32,000 nt of DNA from Candidatus Saccharimonadota bacterium (GCF_029232205.1 NZ_CP107255.1:240001-272000), one strand, 5' to 3'; shown: positions 14,413 to 32,000, counted from the first letter of the stretch. Numbers and translations are program-made. Notes: generated from the letters alone by a model not told the origin.

Positions 14413-16299
14413 TTAAGATATGTCCAATTCGTCTTTGAGGCTTTCGATATACATGCGGGCCATTTTGAAGCGGCCTTCTTTGAGTTTGTTGTCTGCGAGG
14501 TTGATTTCAAGTTGTTTGTCCTGCATGTCTTGGCCTTGGTCTTCGAGTTCCTGGACTTTATCTTTTACTTTGTCCATTTCTTCTGTTAGTTCGTGGTATT
14601 GGTCTAGTTCTTCGTCCGGGATTTTGTGCGGGTTGTGGTATGTTGGTCTGAAGTCTACGAACCATGGGTCTCCGTCGTTGTAGTTGGAGTTCTGGATCAT
14701 ACCTGTACCAACGTCCTCCGAGGATATTCTTTTTGAGAACTGTTCGCCGTATTTTTTCTCGATTCTTTTGATGTCTTCCATGGATTTGGTTTGCATTTGT
14801 ACTTCTGTCATGATGTTTCCGGAGATTGCTTGTTTGAAGTCTGCTGTAACCTGCGAGCACATCATGAGGCCTATACCCCATTTTCTGAATTCTCTTGCTC
14901 CTTTTTCGAGTGCTTTGTATCCTCCTTCTCCTCCGTATTCTTCTAGTAGTCTGTGTACTTCGTCGAATACGATGAATAGTTCGAGTGTTGGACTTTCTTC
15001 CCATTCTTTTTCGAAGATCTGATCAATAATTTTCCTTACGGCCTTGTCGAACTGTTCCGTGGTTAACTGGTTGAGTGTGAATACTGTGATTTCTCCTGGG
15101 TTTCTGAGCTCTTCGAAGTCGATGTCAGGGTCTTCCGACTTGATTTCTTTGATAACGCCGGGATAAGGGTGTGGGTCGGTGTCTTTGTTCATGTCGAATC
15201 TGTCGTAGTGCTCCAGGAGGTTGTCATCTTTCAGTTCTTTTACGAATCCTGTCCATTGTGCTGTTGGATCGAATACTACGACAGGTATGTCCTGTTCTAG
15301 GGCCTCTTCTGCGATGATGTTGGCGGTCACGGATTTTCCGGATCCTGTGGATCCTGCTACGATTGCGTGTGTGGTGAGGTCTTTTGGATTGATGTATGCT
15401 GATTTCTCTGTTTCTGCGATTTTTCCTACTTCAAACATCTGGTCTCCGTCGCCTTCATCTGGTAGTTTGCTGTAGTCGACGGGGAATACGTATCTTGCTT
15501 CTTCCTGCATGTGTTCCTGGTACCATCTGCGTGTGTAGAATCCTCCTCCTATGATCAGGCCTCCTGCCAGAAGTAGTATGGCTAGTTTGATTCTTGTGGC
15601 TGTCCAGAATGGGTTGGTTACCTGGAAAGTGTCTGTTGCTGTTATTGTACGGTTTCCGCGTGTTGCGTGACCCTGTATGTAGTAGTCTCCTGTCGACAGG
15701 CTTTCATTAGGTTCTATAGTGTGTCTGTACGATTTCAGTCTGACAAAGCTGGTGTTTCTGGTTGTTTCAAATACTTTTCTTCCTGTTTGGGCCTCTCTTA
15801 CGTCGTATGTTACTTCTGCGGAGATGTTGCCCTGTGTGCTGCTGGATAGTACTGTGAGTACTCTTATGTTTTCGTTTGGCCGTATTTCTTCTATTGTTGC
15901 CTGCATGTCGATTTTGAATTCGGCGTTTCTTCTTGTTACTACTCTTGCGCCTACTGGAAGGCTTTTTTCGGTGTTTTCGGTTTGTATCAGCAGGCTTCCT
16001 AGGTATAGGCCTTCTTCCAGGTCGTTGGTGGTGTTCATTACTGCTTTTACGTTTCTGGTTTGTCCTGGGCTCAGGCTAAATTGTTCGTTGAGATCCAACA
16101 CTCGTCGCAGGTCTGATCGGCTTGTTACTGTTACGTCTTCTGTTGTGTTTCCGTTGTTGGTGACGCTCAGTGTGTAGATCTGTGGTTCTGATTTGAAGAT
16201 CACGCTGAGAGAGGGGATGTCGTCGTTGACTGATATATCTGCAGCTGCTGTTGCGGTCATCATGCTGAGTGCCAGTAGGATGATTGCTGTTTTTTTCAT
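14413..16299 (-). CDS. Type-I membrane protein: signal peptide, ~240-aa beta-sandwich-like ectodomain, one TM helix, cytoplasmic HerA/FtsK-superfamily (DUF87-like) ATPase
   Basis: 628 aa.
- Signal peptide: MKKTAIILLALSMMTATAAAD.
- TM helix: IKLAILLLAGGLIIGGGF.
- Walker A: AGSTGSGKS.
- DPTAQW motif.
- Walker B: LFIVFDEVHRLL.
- FRKWGIGLMMCSQ (HerA-like RK-G-G-L-SQ motif).
- Coiled-coil C-terminal tail.

The ATG shares one nucleotide with the giant gene's TAA (TAATG). Confidence 0.8.
   Translation of the reverse strand: MKKTAIILLALSMMTATAAADISVNDDIPSLSVIFKSEPQIYTLSVTNNGNTTEDVTVTSRSDLRRVLDLNEQFSLSPGQTRNVKAVMNTTNDLEEGLYLGSLLIQTENTEKSLPVGARVVTRRNAEFKIDMQATIEEIRPNENIRVLTVLSSSTQGNISAEVTYDVREAQTGRKVFETTRNTSFVRLKSYRHTIEPNESLSTGDYYIQGHATRGNRTITATDTFQVTNPFWTATRIKLAILLLAGGLIIGGGFYTRRWYQEHMQEEARYVFPVDYSKLPDEGDGDQMFEVGKIAETEKSAYINPKDLTTHAIVAGSTGSGKSVTANIIAEEALEQDIPVVVFDPTAQWTGFVKELKDDNLLEHYDRFDMNKDTDPHPYPGVIKEIKSEDPDIDFEELRNPGEITVFTLNQLTTEQFDKAVRKIIDQIFEKEWEESPTLELFIVFDEVHRLLEEYGGEGGYKALEKGAREFRKWGIGLMMCSQVTADFKQAISGNIMTEVQMQTKSMEDIKRIEKKYGEQFSKRISSEDVGTGMIQNSNYNDGDPWFVDFRPTYHNPHKIPDEELDQYHELTEEMDKVKDKVQELEDQGQDMQDKQLEINLADNKLKEGRFKMARMYIESLKDELDIS
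14413..16299 (-). repeat. Tandem duplication unit A (whole 628-codon gene)
   Basis: Homologous codon-for-codon to 16299-18185 at a constant +1,886-nt offset. The offset was checked at the stops, Walker A, the ATPase start and the FW motif before the TM helix. Confidence 0.85.
14416..15501 (-). other. Cytoplasmic HerA/FtsK-superfamily ATPase domain of the 628-aa paralogue
   Basis: Walker A codons at 15331-15354. About 87% amino-acid identity to 16302-17387 by hand alignment, with no indels. Confidence 0.8.

Positions 16300-32000: not shown

What the first reader, a model, noticed from the sequence alone, without database searches (positions are those of the whole stretch)
16299..32000. Uninterrupted >15.7-kb ORF: a lectin/Ig-repeat surface giant fused through one TM helix to a cytoplasmic HerA/FtsK-type ATPase
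**What the sequence shows.** There are 5,233 in-frame codons without a stop, and the frame is still open at nt 32000. Reading N to C:
- Ig-like modules
- a C-type-lectin-like insert
- a CBM-like jelly-roll
- a LamG_3 domain
- eleven more Ig-like modules
- an Asn/Thr-rich tract of small beta-sandwich modules
- two Gly/Ser/Asn/Glu linkers (~19785-19865 and ~18183-18305)
- two membrane-proximal beta-sandwich domains
- one TM helix
- a ~360-aa P-loop ATPase with Walker A GSTGSGKS, FDPTAQW, Walker B IVFDEVH and RKWGIGLMMASQ

**Established knowledge.** That motif set is characteristic of the HerA/FtsK (DUF87/COG0433) clade. Its membrane-anchored members (FtsK/SpoIIIE, TraB, VirB4/VirD4-like and CedB-like proteins) are hexameric translocases of DNA or protein.

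**Inference.** Giant adhesins normally end in an anchor, not a motor. Coupling about 4,800 aa of carbohydrate-binding and adhesive ectodomain to a translocase-type ATPase in one polypeptide suggests a contact-sensing or contact-dependent transport device. That would fit an episymbiotic lifestyle. I know of no characterised system with this architecture.
Basis: partly seen in the sequence, partly recalled or inferred. Interest (0 to 1): 0.92.

Follow-up and report, generated by a model that had tools for sequence, protein, structure and literature searches.

The report
Known SPEARE giant adhesin-ATPase gene
This is the back 60% of an already published 8,880-residue "SPEARE" surface protein of the tiny symbiotic archaeon Candidatus Nanohalovita haloferacivicina: a sugar-binding tether joined through the membrane to a HerA-type motor. 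The design is real and widespread but not new.

Summary
On the minus strand, 5,233 codons run from nt 32000 to a TAA at 16301-16299 without a stop. They encode Ig-like repeats, a C-type-lectin-like insert, a LamG_3 domain, two membrane-proximal beta-sandwiches, one TM helix, a DUF87/HerA-type P-loop ATPase and a C-terminal coiled coil.

The novelty claim fails. Three window proteins match Ca. Nanohalovita haloferacivicina BNXNv exactly. The ORF is therefore BNXNv_0298 (8,880 aa), described by Reva et al. 2023 as Ig repeats + TM + ATPase + coiled coil, with a second ATPase gene downstream. The family was named SPEARE by Hamm et al. 2019.

The fusion is not an assembly artefact: nine loci end a giant ORF in the same module, and 64 of the 150 best cluster representatives are at least 2,000 aa.

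What this analysis adds:
- The ATPase is closest to HerA, and the published VirB4 N-domain claim is not reproduced.
- The downstream gene is a miniature of the giant's last ~610 aa.
- The two ATPase halves evolve in concert while their ectodomains keep separate orthology.
- An acidic coiled-coil protein and a Zn-ribbon tail-anchored protein complete a conserved four-gene cassette.

The transported substrate remains unknown.

The parts
16299..32000 (-). C-terminal 5,233 codons plus stop of the SPEARE-type giant surface protein gene BNXNv_0298. The full gene is reported as 26,643 bp / 8,880 aa, so about 3,647 N-terminal codons lie beyond nt 32000.
   Evidence: No stop in 5,233 codons. Organism fixed by exact protein matches. 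Gene described in PMC10266531.
31290..31466 (-). C-type-lectin-like insert (aa 179-237) inside an Ig-like module
   Evidence: Pfam Lectin_C, E = 1e-11, model positions 2-64 of 107. The Ig-module HMM is interrupted at aa 180.
27987..28445 (-). Laminin_G_3 / concanavalin-A-like lectin domain (aa 1186-1338)
   Evidence: Pfam PF13385, E = 7.8e-24, positions 1-151 of 151.
24168..27629 (-). Twelve tandem Ig-like modules (aa 1458-2611), each ending in a D-x-T/x-x-P-P boundary motif
   Evidence: Self-built HMM gives 12 consecutive hits, E = 1e-10 to 3e-32. Weak Big_13/Big_3_3/Big_6 hits.
19866..24167 (-). Asn/Thr-rich, sequon-dense tract of beta-sandwich modules (aa 2612-4045)
   Evidence: N+T up to 34% and 9-22 N-x-S/T sequons per 200 aa. 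Weak Big_1, MG2 and Big_3_5 hits. Repeated partial matches to the membrane-proximal beta-sandwich profile.
19785..19865 (-). Gly/Ser/acidic low-complexity linker 1 (aa 4046-4072)
   Evidence: Sequence read directly.
18183..18305 (-). Gly/Ser/Asn/Glu linker 2 (aa 4566-4606). It lies immediately N-terminal of the part that is homologous to the mature small paralog.
   Evidence: Sequence read directly. Alignment with the paralog starts just after it. Residues 1-29 of the AF2 model are disordered.
17505..18122 (-). Two membrane-proximal beta-sandwich domains (aa 4627-4832)
   Evidence: AF2 model strands 34-133 and 140-239, pLDDT about 90. Foldseek matches WxLIP 9i1y and RbmA 4kkp.
17415..17474 (-). 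The single transmembrane helix (aa 4843-4862)
   Evidence: The only hydrophobic window in 5,233 aa. AF2 long helix 246-279. All 238 sequons are N-terminal of it and none are C-terminal.
16536..17321 (-). Cytoplasmic HerA-clade P-loop ATPase (aa 4894-5155). Walker A is at 17217-17240, Walker B at 16839-16859 and RKWG...SQ at 16737-16772.
   Evidence: Pfam DUF87, 50.9 bits against cutoff 23.2. PDB profile search best hit HerA 4d2i, 3.8e-11. Foldseek matches HerA 4d2i, 8woc, 9x1m, 7f6d. Motifs invariant in 38 homologs.
16311..16502 (-). C-terminal three-helix coiled coil (aa 5167-5230)
   Evidence: AF2 helices 574-599, 605-619 and 623-637. Also noted by Reva et al..
14413..16299 (-). Miniature paralog BNXNv_0297 (628 aa, WEL23154.1): signal peptide + 2 beta-sandwiches + TM + the same ATPase + coiled coil. 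Its ATG overlaps the giant's TAA by 1 nt.
   Evidence: BLASTP 62% identity over 597 aa. Cytoplasmic part 87.5% identical. Pfam DUF87. Exact match to P0004. Junction sequence.
12822..14378 (-). Conserved 518-aa protein: an extremely acidic disordered N-terminal ~180 aa (50% D+E) followed by a long coiled coil, with no TM helix
   Evidence: Translation. Only coiled-coil-type hits such as Rad50/SMC. Present at the same position in all 6 nanohaloarchaeal loci, with conserved MGVLDKI start and VEELSELVLQ end.
12478..12825 (-). Conserved 115-aa Zn-ribbon (CxRC...CPxC) protein with a C-terminal TM helix (tail-anchored). Its start overlaps the previous gene by 4 nt.
   Evidence: Translation. Alignment of 6 orthologs, 44-78% identical, with conserved Cys pairs, PEPPT motif and TM segment.

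Best explanation
**What it is (shown).** The ORF is the C-terminal 59% of BNXNv_0298, the SPEARE-family giant surface protein of the DPANN episymbiont Ca. Nanohalovita haloferacivicina.

**Anatomy (shown).** It is a type-I membrane protein with three parts:
- a very long ectodomain, probably heavily N-glycosylated, built from Ig-like/beta-sandwich modules with lectin-type inserts (C-type-lectin-like, LamG);
- one TM helix;
- a cytoplasmic HerA-clade P-loop ATPase with intact catalytic motifs and a terminal coiled coil.

**Genomic setting (shown).** It is the first gene of a conserved four-gene cassette: giant, miniature paralog, acidic coiled-coil protein, Zn-ribbon tail-anchored protein.

**How it most likely works (inferred).**
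- The ectodomain binds glycans on the haloarchaeal host surface and tethers the two cells.
- The ATPase domains of the giant and the miniature paralog co-assemble into one membrane-attached hexameric ring, as HerA/FtsK-superfamily ATPases do. Their near-identity is maintained by gene conversion.
- The ring uses ATP to move a polymer across the symbiont membrane at the contact site.
- By analogy with the nearest characterised relatives (HerA, and the CedB/CedD pair that imports DNA in Sulfolobales), I favour nucleic acid as the substrate over protein effectors.

**My probabilities.**

| Claim | Probability |
|---|---|
| Identity and architecture | ~0.97 |
| Role in host attachment | ~0.8 |
| Mixed ring with the paralog | ~0.5 |
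| Polymer translocation | ~0.5 |
| DNA as substrate | ~0.3 |
For: **Identity**
- Exact matches of three window proteins to BNXNv on a 1,046,959-bp contig.
- The published description of BNXNv_0298/0297.

**Topology**
- A single hydrophobic helix.
- 238 N-x-S/T sequons before it, against 106 +/- 9 in shuffles, and 0 after it.
- The paralog has a signal peptide.

**Adhesion**: Lectin_C, Laminin_G_3 and Ig-like modules.

**ATPase family**
- DUF87 scores above its Pfam cutoff.
- A profile search of PDB ranks HerA first (3.8e-11), against DotL at 0.012 and FtsK at 0.06.
- Foldseek returns only HerA structures for the ATPase part in the top 50.
- Walker A, Walker B and the R-K-x-G...S-Q motif are invariant in 38 homologs.

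**Real fusion**
- Nine loci end a giant ORF in the full module and follow it with a small paralog. They include complete genomes of SVXNc (9,409 aa) and SG9 (8,553 aa) and a Woesearchaeota contig (15,808 aa).
- Of the 150 best cluster representatives, 64 are >= 2,000 aa with the ATPase at the C-terminal end.

**Coupling of the two ATPases**
- Ectodomain tree: giant and small clades are each monophyletic in 100 of 100 bootstraps.
- Cytoplasmic tree: those clades appear in 0 of 100, while same-genome giant+small pairs appear in 99-100 of 100.
- Within-genome identity reaches 96.7%.
- The two genes of this window share a 92-nt identical tract.

**Expression of the family**: proteomics in Hamm et al. 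2019.

**Analogy**: CedB and CedD are paralogous TM-anchored HerA-clade ATPases, both needed for DNA import.
Against: - No substrate, channel or oligomeric state has been shown for any SPEARE protein.
- A ring of six single TM helices is not an obvious conduit. No polytopic channel protein (VirB6/CedA-like) lies in the conserved cassette.
- Concerted evolution could be a by-product of tandem homologous genes rather than selection for co-assembly. In SG9 the within-genome identity (79.7%) is no higher than between orthologs.
- All matches to characterised families (CedD, HerA, TraC, CedB) are far below their curated cutoffs, so functional transfer is weak.
- Hamm et al. found ectodomain and cytoplasmic peptides in different size fractions. 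The two parts may therefore be separated after synthesis.
Confidence: 0.6

Rival explanations
1. **Type IV secretion 'straw' (Reva et al. 2023).** The giant and the downstream ATPase would be VirB4/TraG-type T4SS ATPases. The giant would form or guide a channel through which the symbiont injects protein effectors into the host.
For: - This is the published proposal.
- Weak Pfam hits to TrwB_AAD_bind, T4SS-DNA_transf and AAA_10.
- NCBIfam TraC-F-type at 4e-7 and VirB4-like models at 5e-5.
- Cytoplasmic bridges have been reported by cryo-ET in the SVXNc-host pair.
Against: - The VirB4 N-terminal domain PF03135 claimed for SVXNc_0299 is not detected in P0005 or P0004 even at E <= 10. That region is a signal peptide plus extracellular beta-sandwiches plus a TM helix.
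- HerA outranks every T4SS ATPase in the PDB profile and fold searches.
- All T4SS family scores are far below their cutoffs.
- No VirB6, VirB8 or pilin-like genes lie in the conserved cassette.
- Ig-like repeat chains are rods, not tubes (established knowledge).
Confidence: 0.2
2. **Original SPEARE model (Hamm et al. 2019).** A serine protease, adhesion domains and a toxin-like pore would open the host envelope. The cytoplasmic domain would be a type III restriction endonuclease that degrades incoming DNA.
For: - This is the published model.
- Pfam ResIII is hit at 3e-6, 27.5 bits against a cutoff of 22.5.
- Adhesion domains and a LamG domain are present.
Against: - The ResIII match covers only the shared P-loop helicase core. 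DUF87 and HerA_C score better on the same residues.
- No nuclease domain is found by Pfam, NCBIfam or fold search.
- Reva et al. also found no endonuclease.
- No protease domain lies in the 5,233 aa present here. The N-terminal 3,647 aa could not be examined.
Confidence: 0.05
3. **Anchor or maturation motor rather than a transporter.** The ATPase ring, with the coiled-coil protein and the Zn-ribbon membrane protein, would organise, cluster, tension or process the giant adhesin from the cytoplasmic side. It could also signal host contact inward. No polymer would cross the membrane.
For: - There is only one TM helix per subunit and no channel gene in the cassette.
- Conserved cytoplasmic coiled-coil partners are present.
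- Ectodomain and cytoplasmic parts appeared in different size fractions in proteomics, which suggests processing.
- Linker 2 sits exactly where the paralog's mature N-terminus aligns.
Against: - Characterised members of the HerA/FtsK superfamily are polymer translocases (established knowledge). No member is known to work purely as a scaffold.
- The catalytic motifs are strictly conserved, which argues for an energy-consuming task.
Confidence: 0.2
4. **Assembly chimera or frameshift artefact.** An adhesin gene would have been joined by mistake to a copy of the neighbouring ATPase gene.
For: - Two ATPase copies 81% identical at the nucleotide level lie in tandem. Such repeats can mislead assemblers.
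- A close relative's contig breaks exactly at the start of the module.
Against: - The same fusion occurs in nine independent loci, including complete genomes of cultured organisms.
- The giant's membrane-proximal ectodomain forms its own orthologous clade, distinct from the small paralog's, in 100 of 100 bootstraps.
- The published BNXNv genome is a closed chromosome.
Confidence: 0.01

Closest known systems
SPEARE / giant membrane-anchored surface proteins of Nanohaloarchaeota (Hamm et al. 2019, PMC6642349; Reva et al. 2023, PMC10266531): Nha. antarcticus NAR1_1133 (5,998 aa), SG9 (8,553 aa), SVXNc_0300 (9,409 aa), BNXNv_0298 (8,880 aa)
   Same: It is BNXNv_0298 itself. The cytoplasmic domain is 82.5% identical to the SG9 8,553-aa protein and 80.8% identical to SVXNc_0300. 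The membrane-proximal ectodomain is 53-59% identical to both. The synteny with the small ATPase gene is the same.
   Different: Nothing differs in kind. Only the C-terminal 5,233 aa are in the window. The name's 'serine protease' and 'restriction endonuclease' parts are not supported for the portion present.
HerA DNA translocase/helicase (Sulfolobus HerA 4d2i; HerA-NurA; SIR2-HerA defence complexes)
   Same: Best sequence-profile and fold match for the ATPase core. It shares the DUF87 family, Walker A/B and the R-K-x-G...Q motif.
   Different: There is no N-terminal HAS barrel; a TM helix and ectodomain stand in its place. No NurA, Sir2 or other nuclease partner lies in the window. NCBIfam HerA models score 23-33 bits against cutoffs of 800-970.
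CedB/CedD of the crenarchaeal Ced DNA-import system (PMC11868833)
   Same: Two paralogous, TM-anchored HerA-clade ATPases work in one system for transfer between cells. CedD is the top NCBIfam hit (5.8e-12).
   Different: The score is 45 bits against a cutoff of 600. Ced ATPases have an N-terminal TM helix with a cytoplasmic VirB4-like NTD and no ectodomain. Ced also needs the polytopic CedA/CedE proteins and CedA1 pili, and none of these lies in this cassette.
VirB4/TraG-type ATPases of type IV secretion systems
   Same: Same FtsK-HerA superfamily. Weak hits to TraC, TrwB_AAD_bind and T4SS-DNA_transf.
   Different: PF03135 is absent. No T4SS partners are nearby. T4SS ATPases rank below HerA in every search.
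FtsK/SpoIIIE and Streptomyces TraB membrane DNA pumps
   Same: Membrane-anchored hexameric P-loop translocases of the same superfamily, acting at cell-cell or septal junctions (established knowledge).
   Different: Pfam FtsK_SpoIIIE scores 18.7 bits, below the 24-bit cutoff. PDB FtsK E = 0.06. There is one TM helix instead of four, and no gamma/KOPS domain.

Membership tests
SPEARE / nanohaloarchaeal giant surface proteins | Very long ORF (thousands of aa) in a Nanohaloarchaeota genome | tested here: met
   >= 5,233 aa in the window. The organism is Ca. Nanohalovita haloferacivicina BNXNv. Published length is 8,880 aa.
SPEARE / nanohaloarchaeal giant surface proteins | Mostly extracytoplasmic, with at least one laminin-G domain and multiple adhesion domains | tested here: met
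   Laminin_G_3 at 7.8e-24, Lectin_C, Ig-like modules. Sequon distribution 238 before the TM helix against 0 after it.
SPEARE / nanohaloarchaeal giant surface proteins | Single TM helix near the C-terminus with a conserved cytoplasmic P-loop region (annotated ResIII or VirB4-like) | tested here: met
   TM helix at aa 4843-4862. Cytoplasmic domain 80-83% identical to those of SG9 SPEARE-1 and SVXNc_0300. DUF87 and ResIII hits.
SPEARE / nanohaloarchaeal giant surface proteins | Followed by a second ATPase gene of the same family | tested here: met
   The 628-aa paralog at 14413-16299. The same arrangement occurs in all nine loci.
SPEARE / nanohaloarchaeal giant surface proteins | Serine protease domain (the 'SP' of the name) | not testable with these tools
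   None is found in the 5,233 aa present. In Nha. antarcticus it was placed at aa 1-1,500. The corresponding N-terminal 3,647 aa lie outside the window. Reva et al. dispute its existence.
SPEARE / nanohaloarchaeal giant surface proteins | Restriction endonuclease domain (the 'RE' of the name) | tested here: not met
   Only the P-loop core matches ResIII. No nuclease domain is found by Pfam, NCBIfam or fold search. This is a flaw of the name, as Reva et al. also concluded, not a reason to exclude the protein.
FtsK-HerA superfamily, HerA clade (Pfam DUF87) | Walker A, Walker B and the conserved R-K-x-G...Q motif; Pfam DUF87 above the gathering score | tested here: met
   DUF87 at 50.9 bits against 23.2. 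Motifs located and invariant in 38 homologs.
FtsK-HerA superfamily, HerA clade (Pfam DUF87) | RecA-like fold closest to HerA | tested here: met
   Foldseek matches 4d2i, 8woc, 9x1m and 7f6d. PDB profile search gives 4d2i at 3.8e-11.
FtsK-HerA superfamily, HerA clade (Pfam DUF87) | Hexameric ring assembly | not testable with these tools
   Only monomer prediction was available.
HerA helicase proper (HerA-NurA) | N-terminal HAS barrel and a NurA nuclease partner | tested here: not met
   A TM helix and beta-sandwich ectodomain precede the ATPase. No NurA is in the window. NCBIfam HerA models score far below cutoff.
VirB4 / type IV secretion ATPase | VirB4 N-terminal domain (PF03135, CagE_TrbE_VirB) | tested here: not met
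   Absent at E <= 10 in BNXNv_0297 (P0004) and SVXNc_0299 (P0005). Also absent in the giant's C-terminus.
VirB4 / type IV secretion ATPase | Neighbouring T4SS channel or pilus genes (VirB6/CedA-like, VirB2-like) | tested here: not met
   The conserved cassette holds only a coiled-coil protein and a Zn-ribbon tail-anchored protein. The rest of the genome was not searched.
CedB/CedD DNA-import ATPases | NCBIfam equivalog score at or above cutoff; cytoplasmic VirB4-like NTD | tested here: not met
   CedD 45 bits against 600, CedB 19 bits against 700. The N-terminal part is extracellular.
FtsK/SpoIIIE | Pfam FtsK_SpoIIIE above the gathering score | tested here: not met
   18.7 bits against 24.

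The most novel reading that the evidence does not exclude
**Reading.** The giant and its miniature paralog would be obligate partners of one mixed HerA-type ring, with their ATPase halves kept interchangeable by gene conversion throughout DPANN. Together with the acidic coiled-coil protein and the Zn-ribbon tail-anchored protein, they would form a distinct class of adhesin-tethered cell-to-cell translocon. This class would be neither T4SS nor Ced. It would move host DNA or other polymers into the symbiont.

**What is new.** I found neither the concerted-evolution pattern nor the four-gene cassette described in the papers I read.
Probability: 0.3. Interest if true: 0.7.

Novelty: already known. 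Interest (0 to 1): 0.3.

Why it matters
SPEARE-type proteins take up 2-4% of some of the smallest archaeal genomes. They are the leading candidates for how DPANN symbionts recognise and exploit their hosts, yet their mechanism is unknown and the two published models conflict.

The finding itself adds no new architecture, because the gene is published.

The re-analysis sharpens the question in three ways:
- The motor is HerA-like rather than a demonstrable VirB4.
- It comes as a giant/miniature pair whose motor halves co-evolve.
- It travels with two further conserved cytoplasmic or membrane partners.

These points give concrete, testable hypotheses (mixed ring, processing at linker 2, DNA versus protein substrate) for groups that already hold the BNXNv-Haloferax co-culture.

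Tried and rejected
- **CBM-like region (aa 736-1020):** the single-sequence AF2 model had pLDDT 40.5, which is unusable, so no fold search was run. Pfam at E <= 0.5 gave no CBM family. The claim stays unverified. I ran no further search on it because it does not affect the verdict.
- **Upstream sequence:** The look-up of encoding contigs for P0004 found no record. The missing 5' 10.9 kb of the gene could not be fetched.
- **Genome-contig scan:** a single-protein query returned only 4 loci. Further loci were obtained through exact-protein look-ups.
- **Promoter/terminator scan:** uninformative, because it uses bacterial consensus sequences on an archaeon.
- **tRNA and Rfam scans of the window:** both empty.
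- **Literature searches:** searches for DPANN + HerA + giant/transmembrane found nothing beyond the SPEARE papers. The giant-gene survey of West-Roberts et al. does not mention this family.
- **Rejected explanations:** chance ORF, about e^-251. Chimeric assembly, given nine conserved loci. Restriction endonuclease, because no nuclease domain is present.

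
Full report
**1. The observation**

Translating window:16299-32000 on the minus strand gives 5,233 sense codons followed by TAA (16301-16299). The frame is still open at nt 32000. The ORF listing shows 16299..31823 only because it starts at the first ATG after the window edge. The product is acidic (792 D+E against 319 K+R) and rich in Thr and Asn (12.5% and 10.0%). It contains one hydrophobic segment, aa 4843-4862.

- Lectin_C at aa 179-237 (E = 1e-11, N-terminal 60% of the model)
- Big_3_3/Big_13
- Laminin_G_3 at aa 1186-1338 (E = 7.8e-24, full length)
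- DUF87/HerA_C/AAA_10 at the C-terminus

The 'CBM-like jelly-roll' could not be verified.

N-x-S/T sequons give independent support for the topology. There are 238 before the TM helix, against 106 +/- 9 expected from shuffles, and none in the 371 residues after it.

**2.

The next gene (14413-16299, minus strand, 628 aa) starts on the last base of the giant's stop codon. It is a miniature of the giant's last ~610 residues:
- signal peptide
- two beta-sandwiches
- TM helix
- the same ATPase and coiled coil

Overall identity is 62%. It is about 20% in the ectodomain and 87.5% in the cytoplasmic 361 residues.

Two more tightly packed genes follow. The first is a 518-aa protein with a hyper-acidic N-terminal ~180 aa and a long coiled coil. 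The second is a 115-aa Zn-ribbon protein with a C-terminal TM helix.

**3. Identity**

The 628-aa protein, SufB and the XPD helicase of the window are exact matches to WEL23154.1, WEL23147.1 and WEL23151.1. These belong to Candidatus Nanohalovita haloferacivicina BNXNv and lie on a 1,046,959-bp contig.

Reva et al. 2023 (PMC10266531) report that genome size. They describe the giant surface protein BNXNv_0298 (8,880 aa; 26,643-bp gene) together with SVXNc_0300 (9,409 aa). Their description is tandem Ig-like domains, a TM helix, a 'VirB4/TraG-like' ATPase and a terminal coiled coil. They note that the gene immediately downstream (BNXNv_0297 / SVXNc_0299) encodes another ATPase of the same family.

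The family was introduced as 'SPEARE' proteins by Hamm et al. 2019 (PMC6642349). That paper showed laminin-G and adhesion domains outside, a TM helix near the C-terminus and a conserved cytoplasmic region. It also demonstrated expression by proteomics.

The window therefore holds the C-terminal 59% of a published protein.

**4. The fusion is real and widespread**

Look-ups around homologs of the small paralog gave nine loci:

| Locus | Source | Gene order (aa) |
|---|---|---|
| L006 | Nanohalococcus occultus | 9,409 -> 623 -> 512 -> 108 |
| L008 | SG9 | 8,553 -> 625 -> 741 -> 108 |
| L009 | 'Nanohalobium sp.' MAG | 8,305 -> 625 -> 756 -> 109 |
| L002 | - | >= 3,078 -> 624 -> 531 -> 109 |
| L001 | - | partial -> 628 -> 525 -> 116 |
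| L010 | Woesearchaeota | 15,808 -> 699 -> 696 ... |
| L004, L011 | - | giant ORF -> small paralog |

A profile of the module matches, end to end, the C-terminus of every giant and every following small gene (Pfam).

An exhaustive HMMER search of 1.84 billion cluster representatives finds 341 clusters at E <= 1e-30. Of the best 150, 64 are >= 2,000 aa and 26 are >= 4,000 aa (maximum 7,878). The ATPase is always at the C-terminal end. Chimeric assembly is excluded.

**5. Which ATPase?**

An AlphaFold2 model of the last 640 aa, built on a 38-sequence alignment, has mean pLDDT 85.6. It shows two beta-sandwiches, a long TM helix, a RecA-like core and a three-helix coiled coil.

- Foldseek against PDB returns HerA structures for the ATPase part (4d2i, SIR2-HerA 8woc/8wiv, HerA-NurA 9x1m/7f6d). 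No VirB4, TrwB or FtsK appears in the top 50. The beta-sandwich pair resembles WxLIP and RbmA.
- A profile search of PDB sequences ranks HerA 4d2i at 3.8e-11, DotL at 0.012 and FtsK at 0.06 (single sequence).
- NCBIfam's best hits are CedD (5.8e-12), HerA and TraC. All are at 20-45 bits against cutoffs of 325-970.

The published argument that the downstream ATPase carries the VirB4 N-terminal domain PF03135 is not reproduced. It is absent at E <= 10 in both SVXNc_0299 and BNXNv_0297. That region is predicted to be extracellular.

The domain is therefore a distinct, TM-anchored branch of the HerA clade (Pfam DUF87). Neither T4SS membership nor the 'restriction endonuclease' of the SPEARE name is supported.

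**6. A mosaic evolutionary pattern**

I did not find this pattern described in the papers read. In neighbour-joining trees of nine giant/small pairs, the membrane-proximal ectodomains of Nanohaloarchaeota split into a 'giant' clade and a 'small' clade, each in 100 of 100 bootstraps. The duplication is therefore old.

In the cytoplasmic domain those clades appear in 0 of 100 bootstraps. Instead, the giant and small copies of one genome, or of two very close genomes, pair up in 99-100 of 100.

Within-genome identity of the ATPase halves is:

| Locus | Identity |
|---|---|
| L002 | 96.7% |
| L011 | 92.2% |
| L010 | 89.5% |
| Window | 87.5% |
| L006 | 86% |
| L004 | 68%, against about 60% to anything else |
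| SG9 | 79.7%, the one case with no excess |

In the window the two genes share a 92-nt identical tract (16510-16601 and 14624-14715). The switch from about 20% to about 88% identity occurs right after the TM helix. This is concerted evolution confined to the motor half.

**7. Mechanism**

Shown:
- a probably glycosylated lectin/Ig ectodomain outside;
- one TM helix;
- an intact HerA-clade ATPase inside;
- a conserved cassette with a miniature paralog, a coiled-coil protein and a Zn-ribbon tail-anchored protein.

Inferred:
- The ectodomain tethers the symbiont to host surface glycans.
- The giant and miniature ATPase domains co-assemble into one hexameric ring. This would also solve the problem of crowding six megadalton ectodomains around one ring.
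- The ring drives a polymer across the symbiont membrane at the contact site.

The nearest characterised analogue is the CedB/CedD pair, two paralogous TM-anchored HerA-clade ATPases required for DNA import in Sulfolobales. For that reason I favour nucleic acid over protein effectors, but weakly.

Counter-points:
- There is no channel protein in the cassette.
- There is only one TM helix per subunit.
- Conversion could be a passive effect of tandem homology.
- Hamm et al. found ectodomain and cytoplasmic peptides in different size fractions.

That last result fits processing at linker 2 (aa 4566-4606), which lies exactly where the mature small paralog begins to align. This is speculation.

**8. 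Verdict**

This is an already known gene of an already named family. The residual interest lies in the unresolved mechanism and in the new details listed above.

Noticed in passing
L010:1-10004 (Woesearchaeota MAG JAIPIC010000001.1), and L010:15145-22100: The gene upstream of the 699-aa small paralog is called as a 15,808-aa protein, and its C-terminus carries the full beta-sandwich/TM/ATPase module. That is far longer than the 9,409-aa protein described as the largest in cultivated archaea. A further ORF of >= 4,143 aa follows in the same cluster.
   Followed up: partly
L011:3-9998 (+) (ENA ERZ1034551 NODE_1): The gene caller split this region into about 15 small minus-strand genes plus a 784-aa gene. 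The plus-strand frame is in fact open for >= 3,332 aa and ends in the complete module. Giants of this family are therefore hidden by mis-annotation in some assemblies.
   Followed up: partly
P0005 (SVXNc_0299) and window 14413-16299 (BNXNv_0297): The published statement that this downstream ATPase contains the VirB4 N-terminal domain PF03135 could not be reproduced at E <= 10. Its N-terminal 260 aa are a signal peptide, two beta-sandwiches and a TM helix.
   Followed up: yes
L001 and L009 (MAGs labelled Candidatus Nanohalobium sp., GCA_042216515.1 and GCA_042217545.1): Both carry the giant + small + coiled-coil + Zn-ribbon cassette. However, Ca. Nanohalobium constans LC1Nh is reported to lack SPEARE genes. 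L001 is 96% identical to BNXNv in the ATPase, so the genus label of that MAG may be wrong.
   Followed up: partly
window 16510-16601 and 14624-14715 (minus strand): The ATPase-coding parts of the giant and its paralog share a 92-nt perfectly identical tract, against 81% nucleotide identity and 60% third-position identity overall. It is a candidate recent gene-conversion tract.
   Followed up: yes
window 7001-32000: There is a very strong AT skew on the plus strand (-0.3 to -0.57). The minus coding strand is therefore A-rich, in line with the Asn/Thr/Asp/Glu-rich proteins. All large genes from 5.2 to 32 kb are on the minus strand.
   Followed up: no
window 17505-18122 versus aa 540-637, 1720-2251, 3203-3299, 4076-4256, 4394-4561 of the giant: The profile of the membrane-proximal beta-sandwich pair also matches several stretches inside the ectodomain. 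The same occurs in the other giants. This suggests the ectodomain grew partly by amplification of that module.
   Followed up: partly
window 614-12393: The rest of the window is ordinary housekeeping: an MMPL/SecDF-like gene, a MatE transporter, an SdpI-like protein, SufB and SufD, a cytidylyltransferase-like gene and an XPD/Rad3 helicase. None is syntenic with the cassette in other genomes. No tRNA or Rfam match was found.
   Followed up: yes
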